NCBI RefSeq assembly: GCF_002571385.2
Contig: NW_019217784.1
Coordinates: forward strand, 2,084,863-2,148,862
Length of the DNA: 64,000 nt
From: Stylophora pistillata
Lineage: Eukaryota
Reading direction: 5' to 3'
This document shows positions 27,530-38,297 of this stretch, one piece after another. The number at the start of each line of letters is the position of its first letter. Within the stretch, counting starts at the first letter, position 1. The translations under genes were made by a program, and so were the position numbers. A model generated the notes under the pieces. It worked only from the letters and a program-made list of their open reading frames with translations, was not told where the DNA came from and made no database searches.

Positions 27530-30500
27530 TTACAACACTGCACAATTCTTGCTCCCATCTACTCCATCTACAAAGAGATTTACTGTTGATCTAATAAAAT
27601 GAAAACAAAAAAATATTAAAGTAACAAAAGAAGGGAAATCGATAAAACTTAACATGTAAATTTCGTTGTTACATGGCAATAACTCGAAACCATTGAAATA
27701 AACATGAAAAGTTGTTTTTAAAGTTACCTGTTTAGAGTTAAGTGACTTCTAACCAGATCACCAGTAGCAAGAGCTGATAGTAAAGACAACTCTCCAGCAA
27801 GAACAGTGCCACATATTATTTGTGCTAATTTTGTTGAATTCTTTCCTGGCTCAGATTTGTTTGGCCCACGAACACCAAGAATCTGAAAAGGGAAAGGTGC
27901 AACACTGCAGGAGACTGTACTATCTTAAGAAATCAAACCCCAAAAAGGCATACAAATCATGGTGAGGAAAATAAAATGGTGCCCCTAGTCAATTTGTGCC
28001 TCTTATAAGGTTTTCCATGATGTTATCAATCATATCATGATCATGACAGTCAGAATCATAAGAAAATATTATTGGTTTTTGGACAACTAAGAACAAGGAA
28101 GTGAGTTATTGACAGCGAAAATTTTGTTTTGTGAACCCCTTTACACTTAAATAACGAATTACAGGAAATCCTTTGTTGTAAGTACCTTTGATGGCACATA
28201 AGGACAAGTACTTTCACCTATTGACGTCCAGTGCGCCCGTAAGCGCCCATGTGAACCCACACCCTTTCTACGCCTTGTGACGTCATCACTGTTAACCCTG
28301 GAGCATGACTTTGAGCACGTACTTGAAAATATCTTACAAACGATACCAGAATGAGTGCAATCGAGTGAAGGCGATTGGAGAAATAGCCAAAAAACCATGT
28401 AAACTTTGACCTGAAAATCTGCATGAAAATCTTATTCCATTACCCACCTACCTTTCTGAGCATGTGGTTTGAAAATAATGAGTAGTTTCCTAAAATATCT
28501 CTACATCAAAATGAAGCCTACCAAATTTCCAGCAAGTGAGGAGAAACTTCGGGCAAGGAAAGGGGGAAAAAGGGCAGGAGAAAGAGAGAAAAGTAAAAGT
28601 CTCCAAATTTTGCTTTCTGCGCGTGCCTGAGATTTTCAGGCCGCCATTTTGCATTTGGATCAAAGGCCGTCGAGCGTACAAACTGTCTATGGGTTTGTGG
28701 TAAGTTTGAGCTTTTACAACAACAACAGTGACCCGAAATCTGGTTGACTAGCTTCAAAACACAGTTTTTCACAAAAGCTGCAGCTATTATTGGGTTAATC
28801 ATAAAAAGAATATTACCTTAAGACAAGCAGACTGGGGGCCCAACACAGTACCTCCTCCTACTGTTCCAACCTCAAGTGATGGCATAGTACAGCTGATCAT
28901 AGATTGAAACAAAAGAATAGAAATTAGAAAGAAAGAGGAGGTATGCAAGTCACCTATAACTTGATTGTTGGTACAAATTAGTTCACAAGTGTCACAATTA
29001 TCTTGAGGAATGGCTAGTTTGTCTGCAGATTCAAGTCTCCCTTCTCAACCCCCCACTCACTAAAAGAAAGCATCAGAACTTATTACCTAACATAAAGGTC
29101 TTCTTTAGTTGGTCCACATGCCTCAAACAGAGTGATACAGTTGCTGCTTGAAACACACTGTGCAGGGTCCTAACAAAAGGAAGATGTAATCTTAAATCAC
29201 TTTCTTATGCACTTAAAATCTGCTTCCTGAGAAATCAATCTGCGTTAGTTTGTAGGCATGATATTAAATAAAACAGCTTGAGAACAAACTTGCTTATTAA
29301 ATGTCGATTGAGTTCTTAATATTTAAATTTGTGTTAAGAAAGTGGATTAAAATCACACAAACTAATACTCAGTGTGAACAATTCATTTTTAACATTCAAT
29401 AAGTTTTCATTCCACTGAAAAATGCATTTTAAACTTATTTTTTTTCTTTTCTACTTAAACAAATGGTCAGCTGTACTGTTCAAATTAACCACTTTAGAAT
29501 ATCAGGAAATCTGTGAAGTGAGGAAAAAAGTAAGTACAGCAACAAGGCATTATAATCAGAAGGGGGGGGGGGGGTGACTATATATCTTTGACACCAGCTT
29601 AAACAGAGTCAGCCCAAGGGTAAAAGGTAGCAAATGAAATCAACAGCAATGTTGTAGTTGCCTTCTTATTTGTACCCAACTTGGAGAAAAGTAAATTGAT
29701 GTATTTTGGCTAAAGAACATTACCTGGCCTGTAGCTATAAATATTGCTGTTACTATGTTAGCAGCATGAGCATTGAATCCTCCAATGGCCCCAGCCATAG
29801 CAGAACCAACAAGATTTTTATTGATGTTAAGTTCTGAGAGGGCAGAGACTGTTGTTTTCAAAACCTGGAAGCAAGAAAAATAGAATCAATACATTATACT
29901 TTGCACAAAATCCAAGCACTCGTATTCATCTCAAAAGTTCTCCTGATGGTGAATGGAGAATTTATAACTATAATCAACTGGTCAAATGGTGCAGACTACT
30001 TAAAGATGTTCCGGCACTAATTTTGAAATTTCCAATCAAATTTCAATAGCATACCATTTACAGCAGTGAGAAAGTGAGTGAAACATACATACCTTCTGAA
30101 CAACATGCCCTGGGATAATAGCCTCACATACAACAGACTTCCCTCTGCCTTCAATCCAGTTTATAGCTGTTGCTTTTTTGTCTGTGCAAACATTTCCACT
30201 CAAACTCAGCACTTCAAGAGTAGGAAAGTGTCCCTGTAAGCAGGTGAGGGCTTTTTCTGTTCCCTGTCACAACAAAATAAAAAAAAAATTAATAAAACAC
30301 CAAATTGAATATGTCTTTTATTCTGTATGCTTGTTTACTAAATTATGAAATTAAATGGATACAAGTGGTTACTAGTAACATATAAATATAATTCAAGATT
30401 TCTATTACCTTTGATACCATGTTCATCCCCATTGCATCTCCAGTTGATGCTACAAATCTAATGAATAACAAGCGCCCTGCGATTATACCTCTTACTGACT

Positions 30501-33500
30501 GCAATCTGGCAAATCTGCAAGTTATATCCATCTATTAGAATGTTCTGTCCAAAGGAATAAATTGAACTATTCAACAAATTTATACTAATCATTAATTTCA
30601 ATTCAGATCCATTTATGGGAGTCATACATTGTTGTTACCTTCCCCTAGAAAACAGATCAGTTTGGGAAGCCTATGCTTTTTTTGGGGGGAGCCTATATCC
30701 CTACCCTAACCCTTTCTCTAGACAGGTCTTTGTTTGATTGTATGACACCAAAGAGACCTGGATCAATCTAATATGAAAAATTCTAACTCTTGAAATTTGA
30801 AATTCTGCACCTACCTGCTTGTGCTGTCAAACTCTTTCTTGATTTCCATAAAATTTTTCTCTTCCTCTAACCACTGCTTAGCATTACTGTGATTCAATGT
30901 TAAATGAAAAAGTGAATATCATTTGTTTTCTTTTGTGCACAGTCCTTGGAAGTTTAGTTTTACAATTTTTATCTTCACTTATTTAGGACAAGACTAGCAT
31001 CTGACTTGGAAGTATTTGATATTGAGAAGTAAAGAAACATGATCCAGTATTGATTACTGGTAGTTGAACATGTAACGGAATTTACCTGGCAAGAACTGCT
31101 GAAGGAAATCTTACTACAGGTCCCCTTGTCATGCCATCGCTAAACACAGAACTGCGAACACCACCACTCAGCTGAGAAACAAACCACTTTAATCAGAAAT
31201 GACACCTCATTGTAACCGTAATTGTTTGTGAAATACTGTTTTTTTAAAACAGGTACTGAGGATTTTAACTTGACTCTGAAATAGTGTGGTTCAACATGTA
31301 GACGCTACAAAAGGAAAGTTACTAAACTGGAAAATTACCAGGAGAGCTCGACAACCACGATTAGTGCTTGCTACCAGACACCCTTCTGTAGTTGCCATGG
31401 GTACATGATAGTTCTCCCCATCTAGCAAAAGAGGGCCAGCAACACCTACAGGAACAGGCATGTAACCAATCACATTTTCACAACAAGCTCCCACTACCTG
31501 AAATAAAAAAAGGACAGCTGTTAGTTTGATATCAAGGGTAAATTCTCTGAGTATGAACAGCAGATAATACCACTTACATCAGAGTAGTTGTAATGGTCAC
31601 AGGGTAGATCAAACAAATCTGTATCAGATGAGAGTTTCTTTGACACCACACTGCGCCTGCAAAATGGTTCAATATAAGTAATGTCTCATGAGCACAGTAT
31701 TGTTGCTAGCCTTCTCATTAAATCATCTAGAAAACAGGGTGGAGATTTTGAGAAATCCCATTTTCAGTGGCATGTGAGCAATCTTCTACAAAGTAGTTTT
31801 ATTGTAATGCTTGGATCACAGACTGAAGTAAAATTAAGTTCTTGAGCATATTCGACAGCACATACGTGTCAGCTTGAGAAGATTGGAGACACTCAATTAT
31901 TCTGACTGGAATTACATGACTGGCCTCAGTCATGCAATTCAAAACCCACTTCCTTGTATTTTACATTCAACAGAAGTCACTTTGTACCTGATTCTCACTG
32001 CCCTTGCTGGATCTTTCAGAACCTTTTCTAGCTGATGACCAGGAATGGTTTTACACTCTACTAACATCTGGACTTCCTTGTCGTTCAAGCGTAACACTCC
32101 ATCCTGTTAAGAAAAATGTACCAAGAAAACATCAATTTTACATGGTTCACACTTTGATTGACAACTGAAAGTCATTTTTAACTCAAGTTTTAGACAAAGA
32201 AAAGTTAACCTACTGGTTGTTTTAGCATCAGCTTGCATTCTTCCATACTGCGTTCTTTGTATTCCGCTATTGGAGGACTACTGTCCAACCTGGCAAGAGC
32301 TAGAGGATGCTTAATGTCATCACTTGAATAGCACACACTACAGTGACCTTCACTAACTGTTCTTCTTCTATCATGGACCTTTAATTTTGTTATAGAACTA
32401 AGTTTCTGGGATTGTTCTTGATTTTCTTCCTTGATGGCCTCTTTTCTAGATAAGCATACAGGCTCAGATCTTGTTTCAGCAGTCTTTTCAGAAGCTAAGC
32501 TTTCTTCACTTGATTTATCAGATTCTTGTTCACCCCCTTGAATGTCTGTGACTGTGGTGTTAGATGCCCGAGCTTCTATGTGTGTCTGCTCCACATGCTC
32601 ATGCATTCTGTCTTCATTATACAAAAAGAACCTGATTGCTAAGCTGACCCCAAACACTAACACAACAATCTGAAAAAGATTAACAAGAATTGATTAAACT
32701 CCAAGCAAATCCACCAGAAAATAAAGATCAAAGGTGGAGTATTATTACTAGTTGGTCAGGTTTCTTTCATCACCTGTTCAGTATTTCCAGCTAAGAACCT
32801 GTGAAGAAGTAAGAAAATTATTGTAAGATAAATTTCAACAACAGCACATACTATAATTTTCTTTATATTTTTTCATTAGTTCAATGTCACTGGGTCCGTT
32901 TGTTAAAATATTATATAGATAGAGCCATTGTAGACTCCCTTTAAGTTCCTCAATTTGATCATGCATGTTTGACTGAAGAGGAGTTCAGTTCCTTGCCTTC
33001 TTATTTAATTCTTAGTCAGGACTGTATAATTGTGACATCCAAACCTGTTTTTCAGGGTCATCTGTCTCAACCTTGAAAATAATTATAACTTTCACATGAC
33101 ACCCAAATACCTTTTAAACCAGTCTTCTTCAAGAGGAGTATTCCCGAAGGAATTTTCACTGTTATCACCACTTCTAACCATAACCCAACGGTGCAGATGA
33201 ACAAACATTAAACCTGTGGACTACAATGATAACAGCCACAAAATTAGGTAATATTTTATGATAATCCAATACATAATTACATACATTTTACAGCTCACAA
33301 ATGACTGATACGAGAAGAACCCTTACAAGTTGGTACTAAACAATTAAACCTAAAACCTAGGTTTTAGGCTTCCTGGGTTGGGTAAGGTCTTTGAACCTTG
33401 TAGGGGATGCTATATCCTTTTGTTGTAACACCTGTATATATATTCTATATGTATAAATCTTGAAATAATTAAATAGTAAATAAATAAATAATATAAGTTC

Positions 33501-36500
33501 CAAGAAATAATAACGTATAACCTCCTACCAAGGTTATTAAAAGAGATAACTACAGTGTACTACTTAATAAATCAATCTTTGTACCATCATTATATAAACA
33601 GAGTTCATTCAGGAGGTGGTATGGAATTCCTGGTGGGTAGTTCCATATTTGAGAAATTCTCAGCTAAGTATCAGTACTATAATGTAATGAAAAAGAAACA
33701 TCACTTGGCCATACCATAATAAGTTTAATCTGCTGCACAACAGGGTTTGGCTCAAGTTCCTCCTCTGTGGTATCTGAAGATTCCAACTGCCACCTTGGTC
33801 TACTGTTTCCTCTTCCTGTGCATAACTATAAAATACATATAACAGGCTTCCACTATAACTTAACACATTTTTTACTTTTCCTTAAGGTGCAAATTAGTAG
33901 TTTCTTTTGACACATTATAAAAAATATTCAAGTATGGTAACAACTTGAAACTGAGGGAATAGGTATAGGTGGTCAATTTTATGGAAATTCATTGCTGCGT
34001 GCCTGCTTTTGTCGAGACAATAGAAAGTTTGAGAATTCACCTCAGTTTCAAGCAAGTCCAAACAAAATTAATCTCTCTGGGACTTTAAATTACAAACAGT
34101 TGAAACTACAAAAAGCTTCCTGTATTCATACCTCAAGGAACAATGACAGGCAGGCAGGAAAGAAGGTCATAAATAACACATAATGGGTGATAAGAGATAA
34201 ACATCCAAACTGACAAATAGTCTCCAACTCTGTGACATCTGCAATAAAATACAACAGATTTGTAATTTAACATGCCAAGATAAAAGTGTAAATTCAATAC
34301 ACTTCAATTTATGTTGAAGAAAAGTGAGAAGGTTAGGTTGACTTGTGGCTAGTAAGATAAACTCTCCCAGGAAATGTTTTGGTTTAAATCCCAGCGTGTT
34401 CTTAGAAAATGCAGTTTTCTCTTAGAGGAGTTCATATGTGTAGCAAGGAACTGTTTAGGGAATTTGATGCAGACTGGGTATGCTGTAACAGACAGGGGTC
34501 CTATCCAAAAGTCCTGATCACTTCATGCAACAGAATCTAGGATAGACTTTGGCAGTCTGAGTCACCAAAAAAAAGCTTGGTTTTTTTTTGTTCTCTACAA
34601 AGGAAATTAAAGTATATTTAACTTAGGACTGTACACTGCACAAACCTGATAGAGTTCCTATACCAATTACCAAAGTACCAACTAGTGTATTGAGTGTCAC
34701 AGTTGGACCAAGGTAGCAAATACTTTCAGCAATCCTGCCAGGAACTGCACTCTAAAAAGTAATGTGGAATTTCAGTTGTTATCTAAAAAACACTGAAAAT
34801 AAAACACTGTTAATAAAACAAATCAACTTTAATGACCCAACAGTCCAGATAATGGAGAGTTTGGATAATCAAAAATATGAATATAAATGTTGGTAGGTTA
34901 AGTCACAGGACTAGAGAAGCAAGTTCAAATAATAAAAAAAATCTGGATAACTGTGGTCCAGATAATCGAGGTTTGATGATACTTACATAAGTTGAAGACT
35001 GAAGAGTGTGCTTCACTAAGGAACTAGCTGTATTGAAGTCACTAAGAAGAAAGAAATACGGAAGAGCCTCCCTGCAAAAGTTAACAGTCTGAGATTACTA
35101 GAAGCTCTTGACTGTTGAACAAATTCTCCTTGTCAGCACTATAGGAAATGTATGGAACTGTGTTGAGACTATGCATACTGATGATAGGGTGTCAGGGGTT
35201 AATAATAACTCAATGACTCCTGCGAAAGTGAAAGTCAAAAATCAGTATCACAGAAACAAAGAGCATGTGATTTGAGCTTAACCCACTGGTAGGAAACAAA
35301 TACATGAAGTTATCATAGTCAGGCATTAGGCTAAACACACTCTTCTATTTCTGGCATAATCATATCTTTGATAACTAATTACAACATACAGTTTGCAAAC
35401 TTGACAGGAAAGTATTAGCTTACAAGATAAGGCCTGTATTTTATTGTATTGTATTGTATTGGCCTTAAACTTAAAATTTCATAGAATGTTTGTGAATCAT
35501 GTCTAAAACCTCACCTTACAACCCAAAAATCTCTGCCATATAAATTAGCCACAATGGAACTGAAGACTAGACAGGAAAAGACTGCAAACATGGATACAAA
35601 TCCTGAAAATTGAATAGAGAAAATGGCTCAAGAAATTTTATTGAGGATAAATTTAGTTGTAGATGGAAAACATTTCTTGAAATTANTTGCAAACTGTATG
35701 TTGTAATTAGTTATCAAAGATATGATTATGCCAGAAATAGAAGAGTGTGTTTAGCCTAATGCCTGACTATGATAACTTCATGTATTTGTTTCCTACCAGT
35801 GGGTTAAAGTGCACCTACACTCAAAAAATTTTTTTCGCCTAACGAAGTAAGCTTATTTTTTTGAGTATTTCTGCGCAAAAATTTTTTTATTTGCTCAAAT
35901 CTTCAATTTTCTATGCCCAGTCAAAATACGGAAGATCGGCCGCCATCTTGCCCCACGACCGAGTTTAAAGAAGAATGGCTCTAGCGGGTAATGTGACGTC
36001 AAATCGAGAACACGAAAGTCTGCTTTTCACACATTTTCACTTGTTTGGGAAGGTTGTAGTCGATAATTGTCCGAAAATATGCCGACTAAGTGTGTTGTAG
36101 AAGGATGTAGCAACGTGCGAAATTTGCAAGAGGGTATCGCGCTCCATAAAATCTTCATAGAACACACCTAGTCGGCATATTTCGGACGATATCGACGACA
36201 ATCTTCCCAAGCAAGTGAAAATGTGTGAGATGCAGACTTTCGTGTTCTCGATTTGACGTCACATTACCCGCTAGAGCCATTCTTCTTTAAACTCGGTCGT
36301 GGGGCAAGATGGCGGCCGATCTTCCGTATTTTGACTGGGCATAGAAAATTGAAGATTTGAGCAAATAAAAAAATTTTTGCGCAGAAATACTCAAAAAAAT
36401 AAGCTTACTTCGTTAGGCGAAAAAAATTTTTTGAGTGTAGGTGCACTTTAACCCACTGGTAGGAAACAAATACATGAAGTTATCATAGTCAGGCATTAGG

Positions 36501-38297
36501 CTAAACACACTCTTCTATTTCTGGCATAATCATATCTTTGATAACTAATTACAACATACAGTTTGCAAACTTGACAGGAAAATATTAGCTTACAAGATAA
36601 GGCCTGTATTTTATTGTATTGTATTGTATTGTATTGGCCTTAAACTTAAAATTTCATAGAATGTTTGTGAATCATGTCTAAAACCTCACCTTACAACCCA
36701 AAAATCTCTGCCATATAAATTAGCCACAATGGAACTGAAGACTAGACAGGAAAAGACTGCAAACATGGATACAAATCCTGAAAATTGAATAGAGAAAATG
36801 GCTCAAGAAATTTTATTGAGGATAAATTTAGTTGTAGATGGAAAACATTTCTTGAAATTAAACAATTATTGAGCAGCTACTTTCAACACACCTGTTATAA
36901 AGAACAAAGCATTTAAAAAATAACTCAACACCACTGTGAAGATTGAGCCTGCTACAAGATGTCTACTTTTCTATCGCTTTGACTGTTAGACTCAGAAAAT
37001 TGCTTTAAAATCAAAATTGTATCTACTTGCATGGATGACTATCTTACCTAAGATGTATGAAGATCCTTGATGAATAAGCTTTTTACACTGAAGATAAATG
37101 CACACAAGAGCAAAGAAATAACTTGTGGGGCCCACATGTAGGCCAGCTGGTAAAGATATCTAAAATTAAAACAAAAGGGCAAATATCAGTGAATAAAGCC
37201 TAAAATTCTTGCCAAATTCTTCACATTTAACGATATATTTACTCAAACAATTGAAACTGTCTGGATTTCTGTGAAGATTACACAAACAAATATGCAACAA
37301 TGTTGTATGGGATTTTCCATTTGATTCCATTTGATCATGTGAAAATGGAATTTCTCTCAAAGGTCCACACTCTTCTCTTAGTCGAAACCAAATTAGGACA
37401 ACTCTGATATAATTATATCAGATTTGCCTCAACTTGTAAAAAAAACATTATAAAAGGTACGATCAGAGTGGAAAGTTCAAATAATATGTTCACACCTATA
37501 ATAATTCCGATGACTAACAATTTACCAAACTCTAAATAACTTTTTTTTTATATTGACCAAATACAACTTCTTTGTGATATGCCCTAGACTACCTTCTGTG
37601 GTAAAATCATGGAAAGCAATTTGGATTAAACTATTCAGGAGGAAAATGTTTATTTACAGCAATTATCTAAAACAATTGCTTTCTTGTAAGTTCTTGATAT
37701 TCAAACAAAGCTTAGAGAGGGTTTCTTACACCGCTTCCCATTCAAGTTGTTAATTTCCGCTAAACTGAAATATGTACACCGCAAATGAGATTAGGTTATG
37801 GCCATAAATTCACACTATTCAAACCATTTCCTTGAATGACTTTCGTATGATTTCTTTGCTCATTAAGCAGCACGCAATTGAATTAGTATCGTGGACGAAC
37901 TTTCATGAAATCAAAAGGCATAAACCATAACCTGACATTCGGTGTAAACACTTGTCGATATCTAAGCTATGAATTTAGTCACGACATGATCCGTACCAAA
38001 ACATCCTTTCAAAGTGGAAGTTTGCTAAATTTGATCAGACTTATTTGCTACAAAGAAGATATACGTAGCGGTCTAAAACTGTACCCAGTAATTTAAATTT
38101 CGATAAGTCTGGAAAAGTCTACTGACCTCCTCGCCGGAACCTATGGTCAGGTCTTTAGAAGAATGTGTTGCATCGTATATATTCAAACTTAACAAACAAA
38201 CAGTTCCAGTGATACAGACCAACAGAACTTCAACAGGATGACGAGAACACTGTCTACCATGGTAGTAAAACAGGTTTGAAATACCACTTTGCGACAT
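27530..38297 (-). CDS. HMGCR: 3-hydroxy-3-methylglutaryl-CoA reductase (class I), 22 coding exons; last exon 27590-27530 ends ...GSKNCAVL*
   Basis: Membrane/sterol-sensing-domain exons plus catalytic motifs [57 protein letters not shown] and RSHLTLNRS. The splice phases checked are consistent. Confidence 0.96.
35278..36860. other. Duplicated ~410-bp segment including an 88-nt HMGCR exon (35515-35602 and 36690-36777); probable haplotype-merge artefact
   Basis: 35278-35685 is nearly identical to 36448-36860. A single n at 35686 is followed by a reverse-complement copy of the flank. Confidence 0.75.
35804..36451. mobile_element. Kolobok-like foldback element with a THAP-domain N-terminal remnant
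   Basis: TTAA-AGTGCACC ... GGTGCACT-TTAA with about 300-bp arms. 36079-36150 reads [24 protein letters not shown] (THAP-type MPxxC-x4-C...H start). Confidence 0.75.

What the first reader, a model, noticed from the sequence alone, without database searches (positions are those of the whole stretch)
33715..37159. The same HMGCR lacks the Insig-binding YIYF motif and both ERAD ubiquitination lysines
Seen: exon 37159-37048 reads ...[21 protein letters not shown] and exon 33825-33715 reads ...[19 protein letters not shown]. Known: human HMGCR has YIYF (75-78), GSK89YILG and EEENK248PNP, required for sterol/Insig-dependent ubiquitination. Here YIYF is CIYL (37102-37091), K89 is Ser (37060-37058) and K248 is Glu (33753-33751), while the surrounding motifs are intact. 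Inference: the enzyme is uncoupled from sterol-triggered ERAD. That would fit an animal thought to obtain sterols from food or algal symbionts, and together with the CaaX tail suggests control by non-sterol isoprenoids.
Basis: partly seen in the sequence, partly recalled or inferred. Interest (0 to 1): 0.7.

Follow-up and report, generated by a model that had tools for sequence, protein, structure and literature searches.

The report
Hexacoral HMGCR's rewritten Insig-binding helix
The coral's statin-target enzyme HMG-CoA reductase has lost the motif and both lysines that mammals use to destroy it when sterols are high, as has a non-symbiotic sea anemone, so it likely escapes that switch for reasons older than algal symbiosis.

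Summary
The spliced, expressed gene is this genome's only HMG-CoA reductase found with a sterol-sensing domain. It reads CIYL, Ser and Glu where mammals have Y75IYF, K89 and K248.

Symbiosis is not the cause: non-symbiotic Nematostella also lacks all three. It is not the general invertebrate state either. No named invertebrate bilaterian has exact YIYF (0/17), but most keep Y75 (13/17), K89 (13/17) and K248 (14/18).

The three residues belong to a wider rewrite of TM2-TM3 fixed in hexacorals: 10/26 bilaterian-conserved columns changed, against 6/210 in the catalytic domain. Y75C matches the Scap Y298C mutation that blocks Insig binding.

The genome keeps INSIG, SCAP and UBIAD1, and HMGCR keeps its UBIAD1-contact residues. 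No squalene synthase, squalene epoxidase or oxidosqualene cyclase was found.

Most likely, the enzyme is insensitive to mammalian-type sterol/Insig degradation and is controlled by non-sterol isoprenoids; this is untested. A conserved Cys-Lys-Lys in the K89 loop could substitute. A fly keeps these residues although Drosophila lacks Insig, so they are imperfect markers. Medusozoans and sponges were not sampled. The scan's earlier notes do not hold this.

The parts
27530..38297 (-). Coding span of the HMG-CoA reductase gene (891 aa; ATG 38297, stop 27532-27530; the transcript contig starts near 38572)
   Evidence: tblastn of P0001 covers the gene exon by exon, with mismatches only where hits run into introns; Pfam PF12349 + PF00368; RNA joints and 3559-nt contig
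38127..38297 (-). Coding part of exon 1 (TM1 and lumenal loop L1-2; lacks the Cys-x-Trp loop residues of bilaterians)
37048..37159 (-). Exon 2: rewritten TM2 and cytosolic loop L2-3
37091..37102 (-). CIYL at the Y75IYF site; first residue Tyr to Cys, the same change as Scap Y298C
   Evidence: Y298 is the first Tyr of Scap YIYF (numbering); phenotype in PMC12773782
37079..37087 (-). Cys-Lys-Lys (mammalian positions 80-82), conserved in 10 of 10 anthozoans; candidate substitute ubiquitin acceptors (inferred)
37058..37060 (-). Ser at the K89 site
36690..36777 (-). Exon 3 (TM3)
35515..35602 (-). Identical second copy of exon 3 beside an N (35686) and an inverted repeat; likely an assembly artefact
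   Evidence: record positions in the mRNA contig leave room for one copy only
34987..35071 (-). Exon 4 (TM4; D133 kept)
34646..34751 (-). Exon 5 (TM5; hexacoral D171N and E175G; UBIAD1-contact site 181 is Ile, S185 kept)
34132..34238 (-). Exon 6 (TM6)
33715..33825 (-). Exon 7: cytosolic loop L6-7 (no lysine in this species) and start of TM7
33751..33753 (-). Glu at the K248 site
33727..33747 (-). N250, V252 and I256: the UBIAD1-contact face of TM7, kept
   Evidence: contacts from PMC9314443
27533..27544 (-). C-terminal CAVL, a CaaX-like tail (predicted geranylgeranylation site; untested), in 9 of 9 hexacoral proteins

Best explanation
This is the coral's ordinary membrane-bound HMG-CoA reductase, whose Insig-facing helices TM2-TM3 carry a rewritten sequence shared by stony corals and sea anemones, which likely makes it insensitive to mammalian-type sterol/Insig-triggered degradation and likely leaves its feedback to non-sterol isoprenoids. 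Shown: the substitutions; their spread (K89 absent in 10/10 anthozoans, Y75C in 9/9 hexacorals, K248 absent in 9/10 anthozoans); expression; INSIG, SCAP and UBIAD1 in the genome; the kept UBIAD1-contact residues. Inferred: Y75C with F80C, R69Y and C70F spoils the Insig interface as Y298C does in Scap. With no sterol pathway to switch off, sterol-triggered destruction of the enzyme that supplies prenyl groups, dolichol and quinones has no benefit. GGPP-dependent release of UBIAD1 remains as the likely control, perhaps with the CAVL tail. The change predates and does not depend on photosymbiosis.
For: Site table, segment identities and tree. 10/26 bilaterian-conserved columns in TM2-TM3 are changed in all five named hexacorals, against 6/210 in the catalytic domain (Fisher p 2e-7; columns are not independent and all share one ancestry). 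Five of the ten have a single new residue in all five species. The filasterean Pigoraptor has YTYF and K89, so the change is derived. Scap Y298C fails to bind Insig-2 (PMC12773782, passages) and Y298 is the first Tyr of YIYF. YIYF, K89 and K248 are required in mammals (PMC9314443). No SQHop_cyclase_C or SE match in the genome; the single SQS_PSY match is one short exon, while the control family ERG4_ERG24 was found exon by exon. Cnidarians are described as sterol auxotrophs lacking CYP51 (PMC6548501, PMC8110760). UBIAD1 ortholog present (E 5e-82 to 8DJK_B); N250, V252, I256 and V267 kept. Predicted HMGCR(1-330)-UBIAD1 complex: weak support only, score 0.43 against best control 0.00, runs agreeing in at least 91% of contacts, partner pLDDT at least 74. 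The mark was reached by 51/78 solved and 2/108 mismatched pairs, but at 0.60 or under by only 5/78 solved and by all 4 passing mismatches of 180; a like complex (8DJM) is solved, so the pass may be from memory.
Against: No functional test. INSIG is kept and well conserved (E 2e-30 to Insig), and HMGCR keeps G87 and D133. SCAP in the same genome also departs from YIYF (YLAF), so the interface may have co-evolved. Cys-Lys-Lys sits in the same loop as K89 in 10/10 anthozoans. Actinia keeps K248 and the octocoral keeps YLYF. Arthropods, sterol auxotrophs by recall, mostly keep Y75, K89 and K248, including the fly Rhagoletis although Drosophila has no Insig (PMC3653402), so neither auxotrophy nor Insig loss predicts these residues. 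Gene absence in a fragmented assembly is not proof, and PMC8110760 notes reports of sterol synthesis in some anthozoans. The SQS_PSY hit is called NDUFAF6-like from recall only (one search found no solved match).
Confidence: 0.5

Rival explanations
1. Insig-dependent degradation persists. The HMGCR-INSIG interface co-evolved in anthozoans, and ubiquitin goes onto substitute acceptors in the same cytosolic loop (K81/K82, C80 or the serines). It would respond to dietary or symbiont sterols.
For: INSIG retained, with the F115, H120 and basic 110 positions kept; SCAP motif also changed; D133 and G87 kept; C80-K81-K82 in 10/10 anthozoans; the new TM2 C-terminal half is 72% identical between corals and anemones, so it is constrained; gp78 can ubiquitylate a cysteine (PMC6969111, abstract and passages).
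Against: Y75C matches a known Insig-blind mutation; SCAP keeps the first Tyr and last Phe while HMGCR lost both; K81 or K82 also occur in many bilaterians that keep K89, so they need not be replacements.
Confidence: 0.25
2. Nothing was uncoupled. Sterol/Insig degradation of HMGCR is a vertebrate or deuterostome refinement, Y75 and K89 are conserved in other animals for structural reasons, and the anthozoan changes are one of several lineage-specific remodellings of the sensing domain with no regulatory meaning.
For: Exact YIYF only in the vertebrate rows (0/17 invertebrates); residues kept in a fly lineage despite Insig loss in Drosophila; similar TM2-3 remodelling in Octopus 13/28, Nymphon 11/27, Tigriopus 21/29 and Styela HMGCR2 19/28; Pigoraptor lacks K248.
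Against: YTYF and K89 in a unicellular relative show the motif is old; molluscs and echinoderms keep YxYL/M, K89 and K248 together; the hexacoral changes are fixed to new residues while the catalytic domain is as conserved as in bilaterians (69% against 66% identity to the vertebrate row).
Confidence: 0.2
3. The loss is an adaptation to sterol supply from algal symbionts.
For: All seven stony-coral proteins lack all three features.
Against: Nematostella, non-symbiotic per PMC6548501, also lacks all three; Actinia tenebrosa and Dendronephthya gigantea (non-symbiotic by recall) lack K89 and share much of the rewrite.
Confidence: 0.03
4. The gene is a divergent paralog, a pseudogene or an assembly artefact, and a canonical HMGCR exists elsewhere in the genome.
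For: A second intron-bearing HMG-CoA-reductase-like gene lies on G000:C241; the locus has a duplicated exon and an N.
Against: The C241 gene is far more divergent and shows no membrane-domain exons in 24 kb upstream (N gaps of about 0.7 and 1.2 kb remain); the window gene is fully spliced and groups with anthozoan HMGCRs (SH-aLRT 99) in species order.
Confidence: 0.02

Closest known systems
Mammalian HMGCR with Insig-mediated, sterol-accelerated ERAD (hamster membrane domain, PDB 8DJK/8DJM)
   Same: Membrane sensing domain plus class I catalytic domain (64-67% identity to the human catalytic part); G87, D133, S185, N250, V252 and V267 kept; INSIG, SCAP and UBIAD1 in the genome.
   Different: Y75C, F78L, F80C, K89S, K248E; TM2 18% identical to the vertebrate row; lumenal Cys/Trp loop residues lost; CaaX-like C-terminus; no sterol pathway found downstream.
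Scap Y298C sterol-resistant mutant
   Same: Tyr to Cys at the first position of the YIYF motif.
   Different: A laboratory mutant of another SSD protein; the effect of Y75C in HMGCR was not found in the papers read.
Yeast Hmg2p, degraded in response to GGPP rather than sterols (PMC10873557 passage)
   Same: A precedent for HMGCR turnover driven by a non-sterol isoprenoid.
   Different: Fungal isozyme with a different membrane domain; no sequence comparison was made here.
Drosophila and other arthropod HMGCR (sterol auxotrophs; Drosophila lacks Insig)
   Same: Animal HMGCR in a host that makes no sterols.
   Different: Mirror image: the arthropods sampled mostly keep Y75, K89 and K248 while Drosophila lost Insig; the coral keeps INSIG and lost the residues.

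Membership tests
Metazoan membrane-bound class I HMG-CoA reductase | Catalytic HMG-CoA_red domain | tested here: met
   PF00368 E 7e-145; 1DQ8 E 1e-180; Foldseek top hits are human HMGCR
Metazoan membrane-bound class I HMG-CoA reductase | N-terminal multi-pass membrane domain with a sterol-sensing domain | tested here: met
   PF12349 E 9e-11; 8DJK_A E 3e-63; predicted helical bundle over residues 6-339
Metazoan membrane-bound class I HMG-CoA reductase | Orthology and expression | tested here: met
   Anthozoan clade SH-aLRT 99 in a quick tree; spliced mRNA; only SSD-bearing copy found
Insig-dependent sterol-accelerated ERAD substrate (mammalian type) | Y75IYF in TM2 | tested here: not met
   CIYL
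Insig-dependent sterol-accelerated ERAD substrate (mammalian type) | Ubiquitin acceptors K89 and K248 | tested here: not met
   Ser and Glu
Insig-dependent sterol-accelerated ERAD substrate (mammalian type) | G87 and D133, which contribute to Insig binding | tested here: met
   Both kept; roles from PMC10873557 and PMC9314443
Insig-dependent sterol-accelerated ERAD substrate (mammalian type) | INSIG gene in the genome | tested here: met
   G000:C182
Insig-dependent sterol-accelerated ERAD substrate (mammalian type) | Sterol-induced Insig binding, ubiquitination and degradation | not testable with these tools
   Needs cell assays
UBIAD1/GGPP-regulated HMGCR | UBIAD1 ortholog and the TM5/TM7 contact residues V181, S185, N250, V252, V256, V267 | tested here: met
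   (Ile at 181 and 256, the others identical)
UBIAD1/GGPP-regulated HMGCR | Physical complex that dissociates with GGPP | tested here: inconclusive
   Predicted complex gave weak support, 0.43 against control 0.00, with a like complex already solved; GGPP response untested

The most novel reading that the evidence does not exclude
Hexacorals rewired the rate-limiting step of the mevalonate pathway from sterol feedback to purely isoprenoid feedback. On their stem lineage HMGCR became Insig-blind through a natural Y298C-equivalent change, kept the UBIAD1/GGPP arm, and gained a C-terminal CAVL tail by which the enzyme is geranylgeranylated by its own end product, while INSIG serves SCAP alone.
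Probability: 0.15. Interest if true: 0.75.

Novelty: new variant of a known kind. Interest (0 to 1): 0.42.

Why it matters
If true, it shows how an animal that must import sterols but keeps INSIG and SCAP detaches isoprenoid supply from sterol level, by changing the enzyme rather than losing Insig as Drosophila did. It gives a natural HMGCR variant that separates the sterol/Insig arm from the GGPP/UBIAD1 arm of degradation, which can be tested in existing S2-cell or CHO assays. It does not bear specifically on coral symbiosis.

Tried and rejected
A PDB search with exon 2 alone found no HMGCR; the exon is too diverged. The third homolog search (alignment A2, longer proteins) searched only 1678-4790 aa and found nothing, so Hydra, jellyfish, sponges, placozoans and ctenophores were not identified among the hits. 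The careful tree did not finish; the quick tree was used. The Foldseek listing showed only catalytic-domain chains in its top 50, so it says nothing on TM2. PMC10873557 names no sterol-binding residues, so retention of sterol binding could not be tested. PMC8787064 passages held nothing relevant. The SQS_PSY hit had no solved relative. Rejected: symbiosis as cause; general invertebrate state for K89 and Y75; divergent paralog; an alternative exon restoring YIYF (no such joint among those listed); the duplicated exon 3 as a real tandem exon. Earlier scan notes: two look-ups were empty and one gave three notes on unrelated HMGR genes.
Full report
Observation. The two exons and three sites are as described: CIYL at 37102-37091, Ser at 37060-37058, Glu at 33753-33751, with canonical splice ends. 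The hamster membrane domain in PDB 8DJK carries K89R/K248R (PMC9314443, passages). Its alignments put the coral Glu opposite site 248 and fix the numbering of site 89. The protein P0001, labelled by NCBI as Stylophora pistillata HMGCR-like X1, matches the window exon by exon, so I used it as the full-length gene product. RNA from the same species label shows every joint of the membrane region and 13 listed joints of the 3' part; one 3559-nt contig runs from 38572 to the 3' end. Exon 3 occurs twice in the assembly, identical and next to an N and an inverted repeat, but the contig has room for one copy, so the duplicate is likely an assembly artefact.

Is it the real ortholog? A genome search with PF00368 gave 12 matches at three places: this gene, an intronless bacterial-looking fragment on a 1135-nt contig, and a very divergent intron-bearing gene on C241. 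I saw no membrane-domain exons in 24 kb upstream of the C241 gene, apart from N gaps. In a quick tree of 32 proteins (6 of 38 left out as truncated, misaligned or redundant), the 10 anthozoan rows form one branch (SH-aLRT 99) in species order.

Distribution. Homologs came; names for 30 representatives were looked up. The sample is biased towards 50%-cluster representatives. tabulates 38 proteins: 10 anthozoan (4 unnamed, placed by the tree), 2 fish (one unnamed), 19 named invertebrate bilaterians, Pigoraptor, and 6 unnamed rows that I did not count. Stony corals (7/7): CIYL, S or P at 89, E at 248. Actinia: CVYL, T, K. Nematostella: CVFL, R, V. Dendronephthya: YLYF, R, V. Named invertebrate bilaterians (Priapulus and Mya dropped for TM2, Tachypleus dropped for 248, for lack of coverage): exact YIYF 0/17, Y75 13/17, K89 13/17, K248 14/18; both lysines lost in 2/16 (Styela HMGCR2, Tigriopus). 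Pigoraptor has YTYF and K89 but no K248. So lack of exact YIYF is the usual invertebrate state, but loss of Y75 and K89 is derived. K89 is absent from all anthozoans sampled and Y75C marks hexacorals. Nematostella is non-symbiotic (PMC6548501, passages), which removes symbiosis as the cause. No medusozoan, sponge, placozoan or ctenophore was identified (one search was empty).

A wider rewrite. Mean identity of five named hexacorals to the vertebrate row is 16% in TM2, 38% in TM3, 58% in TM5, 62% in TM7 and 69% in the catalytic domain; for 14 bilaterian invertebrates it is 47, 61, 64, 70 and 66%. Of columns conserved in bilaterians, 10/26 in TM2-TM3, 10/60 in TM4-TM6, 2/22 in L6-7/TM7 and 6/210 in the catalytic domain differ in all five hexacorals. 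Many changed to one fixed residue (R69Y, C70F, Y75C, F80C, S103C, D171N, E175G), which suggests a new constrained state rather than decay. TM2, TM4 and TM5 form the modelled Insig face, and F80 and D133 are named in it (PMC9314443 section 10). Octopus, Nymphon, Ramazzottius, Tigriopus and Styela HMGCR2 show their own heavy TM2-3 change, so such remodelling recurs. The AlphaFold2 model (mean pLDDT 67) keeps a helix over residues 66-87 that ends in the Cys-Lys-Lys loop before TM3.

Partners and pathway. INSIG is present; a single Insig was already reported for Nematostella and other invertebrates (PMC6969111, passages). SCAP is present on C1175 and reads YLAF at its YIYF site. UBIAD1 is present, with extra divergent copies. 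HMGCR keeps the contact residues whose mutation breaks the hamster complex (PMC9314443 section 5 part 1). A predicted complex gave weak support: 0.43 against best control 0.00, contact agreement at least 91%, partner pLDDT at least 74. At 0.60 or under the mark was reached by only 5 of 78 solved pairs and by all 4 passing mismatches of 180, and the solved 8DJM complex may be remembered. No oxidosqualene cyclase or squalene epoxidase match was found, and the one SQS_PSY match is a single exon that I recognise from recall as NDUFAF6-like. The control family ERG4_ERG24 was found. This agrees with published sterol auxotrophy and CYP51 absence in cnidarians, though the latter paper notes conflicting labelling data (PMC6548501, PMC8110760; passages).

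Mechanism. The strongest single clue is that the first motif residue is Cys. [quoted passage not shown] With both acceptor lysines gone and no lysine in loop L6-7 of this species, the enzyme likely escapes mammalian-type sterol/Insig degradation. The kept UBIAD1 face, and a CAVL tail in 9/9 hexacorals that first appears on the same branch as Y75C, point to non-sterol control; yeast Hmg2p is a precedent (PMC10873557, passage). All of this is inference. Against it: INSIG, G87 and D133 are kept; SCAP's motif also drifted; Cys-Lys-Lys is invariant in the K89 loop, and cysteine ubiquitylation by gp78 is known (PMC6969111); and arthropods keep these residues although Drosophila lacks Insig and sterol synthesis (PMC3653402, passages), so the residues are imperfect markers of the pathway.

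Novelty. Nine full-text searches (listings and abstract starts, plus the passages cited) showed no paper on the cnidarian HMGCR membrane domain. The library lacks most subscription journals, and I read neither the original YIYF/lysine papers nor the 2019 survey of cholesterol-pathway evolution; no supplements were opened. The scan's earlier notes do not hold this finding. Verdict: a real, lineage-wide variant of a well-known regulatory module, older than symbiosis, with an untested but easily testable functional reading. Interest 0.42.

Noticed in passing
G000:C241:85294-89074 (-) = L003 1783-5575: A second, very divergent, intron-bearing HMG-CoA-reductase-like gene with no membrane domain seen upstream; possibly an old horizontal acquisition or a soluble paralog.
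   Followed up: partly
G000:C4867 (L006 1-768, -): Intronless bacterial-looking HMG-CoA reductase on a 1135-nt contig; probably a symbiont or contaminant.
   Followed up: partly
window 27533-27544 (-): CAVL C-terminus in 9 of 9 hexacoral HMGCRs; the octocoral ends CPLP; no bilaterian row ends in a CaaL.
   Followed up: partly
L016 1082-1093 (+) (G000:C1175): SCAP reads YLAF at its YIYF motif. Its next SSD exon appears twice on the contig (1851-2153 and 8502-8804), perhaps another assembly duplication.
   Followed up: partly
G000:C29:217479-224322, C29:252391-253077, C132:72037-72546: Besides the UBIAD1 ortholog there are divergent UBIAD1-like copies, two of them clustered on the same contig.
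   Followed up: partly
window 35278-36860: Direct duplication of 249 + 184 nt around a 379-nt inverted repeat and an N at 35686; it duplicates exon 3 and is likely an assembly artefact at a high-copy repeat.
   Followed up: yes
window 34236-34238 and 34644-34646: The window and P0001 give Asp at the exon 5/6 junction where the other corals have Gly; reads of two runs fit a joint shifted by 2 nt, consistent with a Gly allele.
   Followed up: no
proteins P0184, P0193, P0196, P0194: Octopus, the sea spider Nymphon, the copepod Tigriopus and Styela HMGCR2 show independent loss of Y75 and/or K89 with heavy TM2-TM3 change.
   Followed up: partly
window 9054-10490 (+), 13705-13082 (-), about 16789-24138 (+), about 1956-3989 (+), about 56477-64000 (+): Neighbouring genes recognised from recall only: an intronless DET1-like ORF, ribosomal protein S6, a gamma-tubulin complex component, an ion-channel-like gene and an ataxin-2-like gene. 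No functional link to HMGCR is evident.
   Followed up: no
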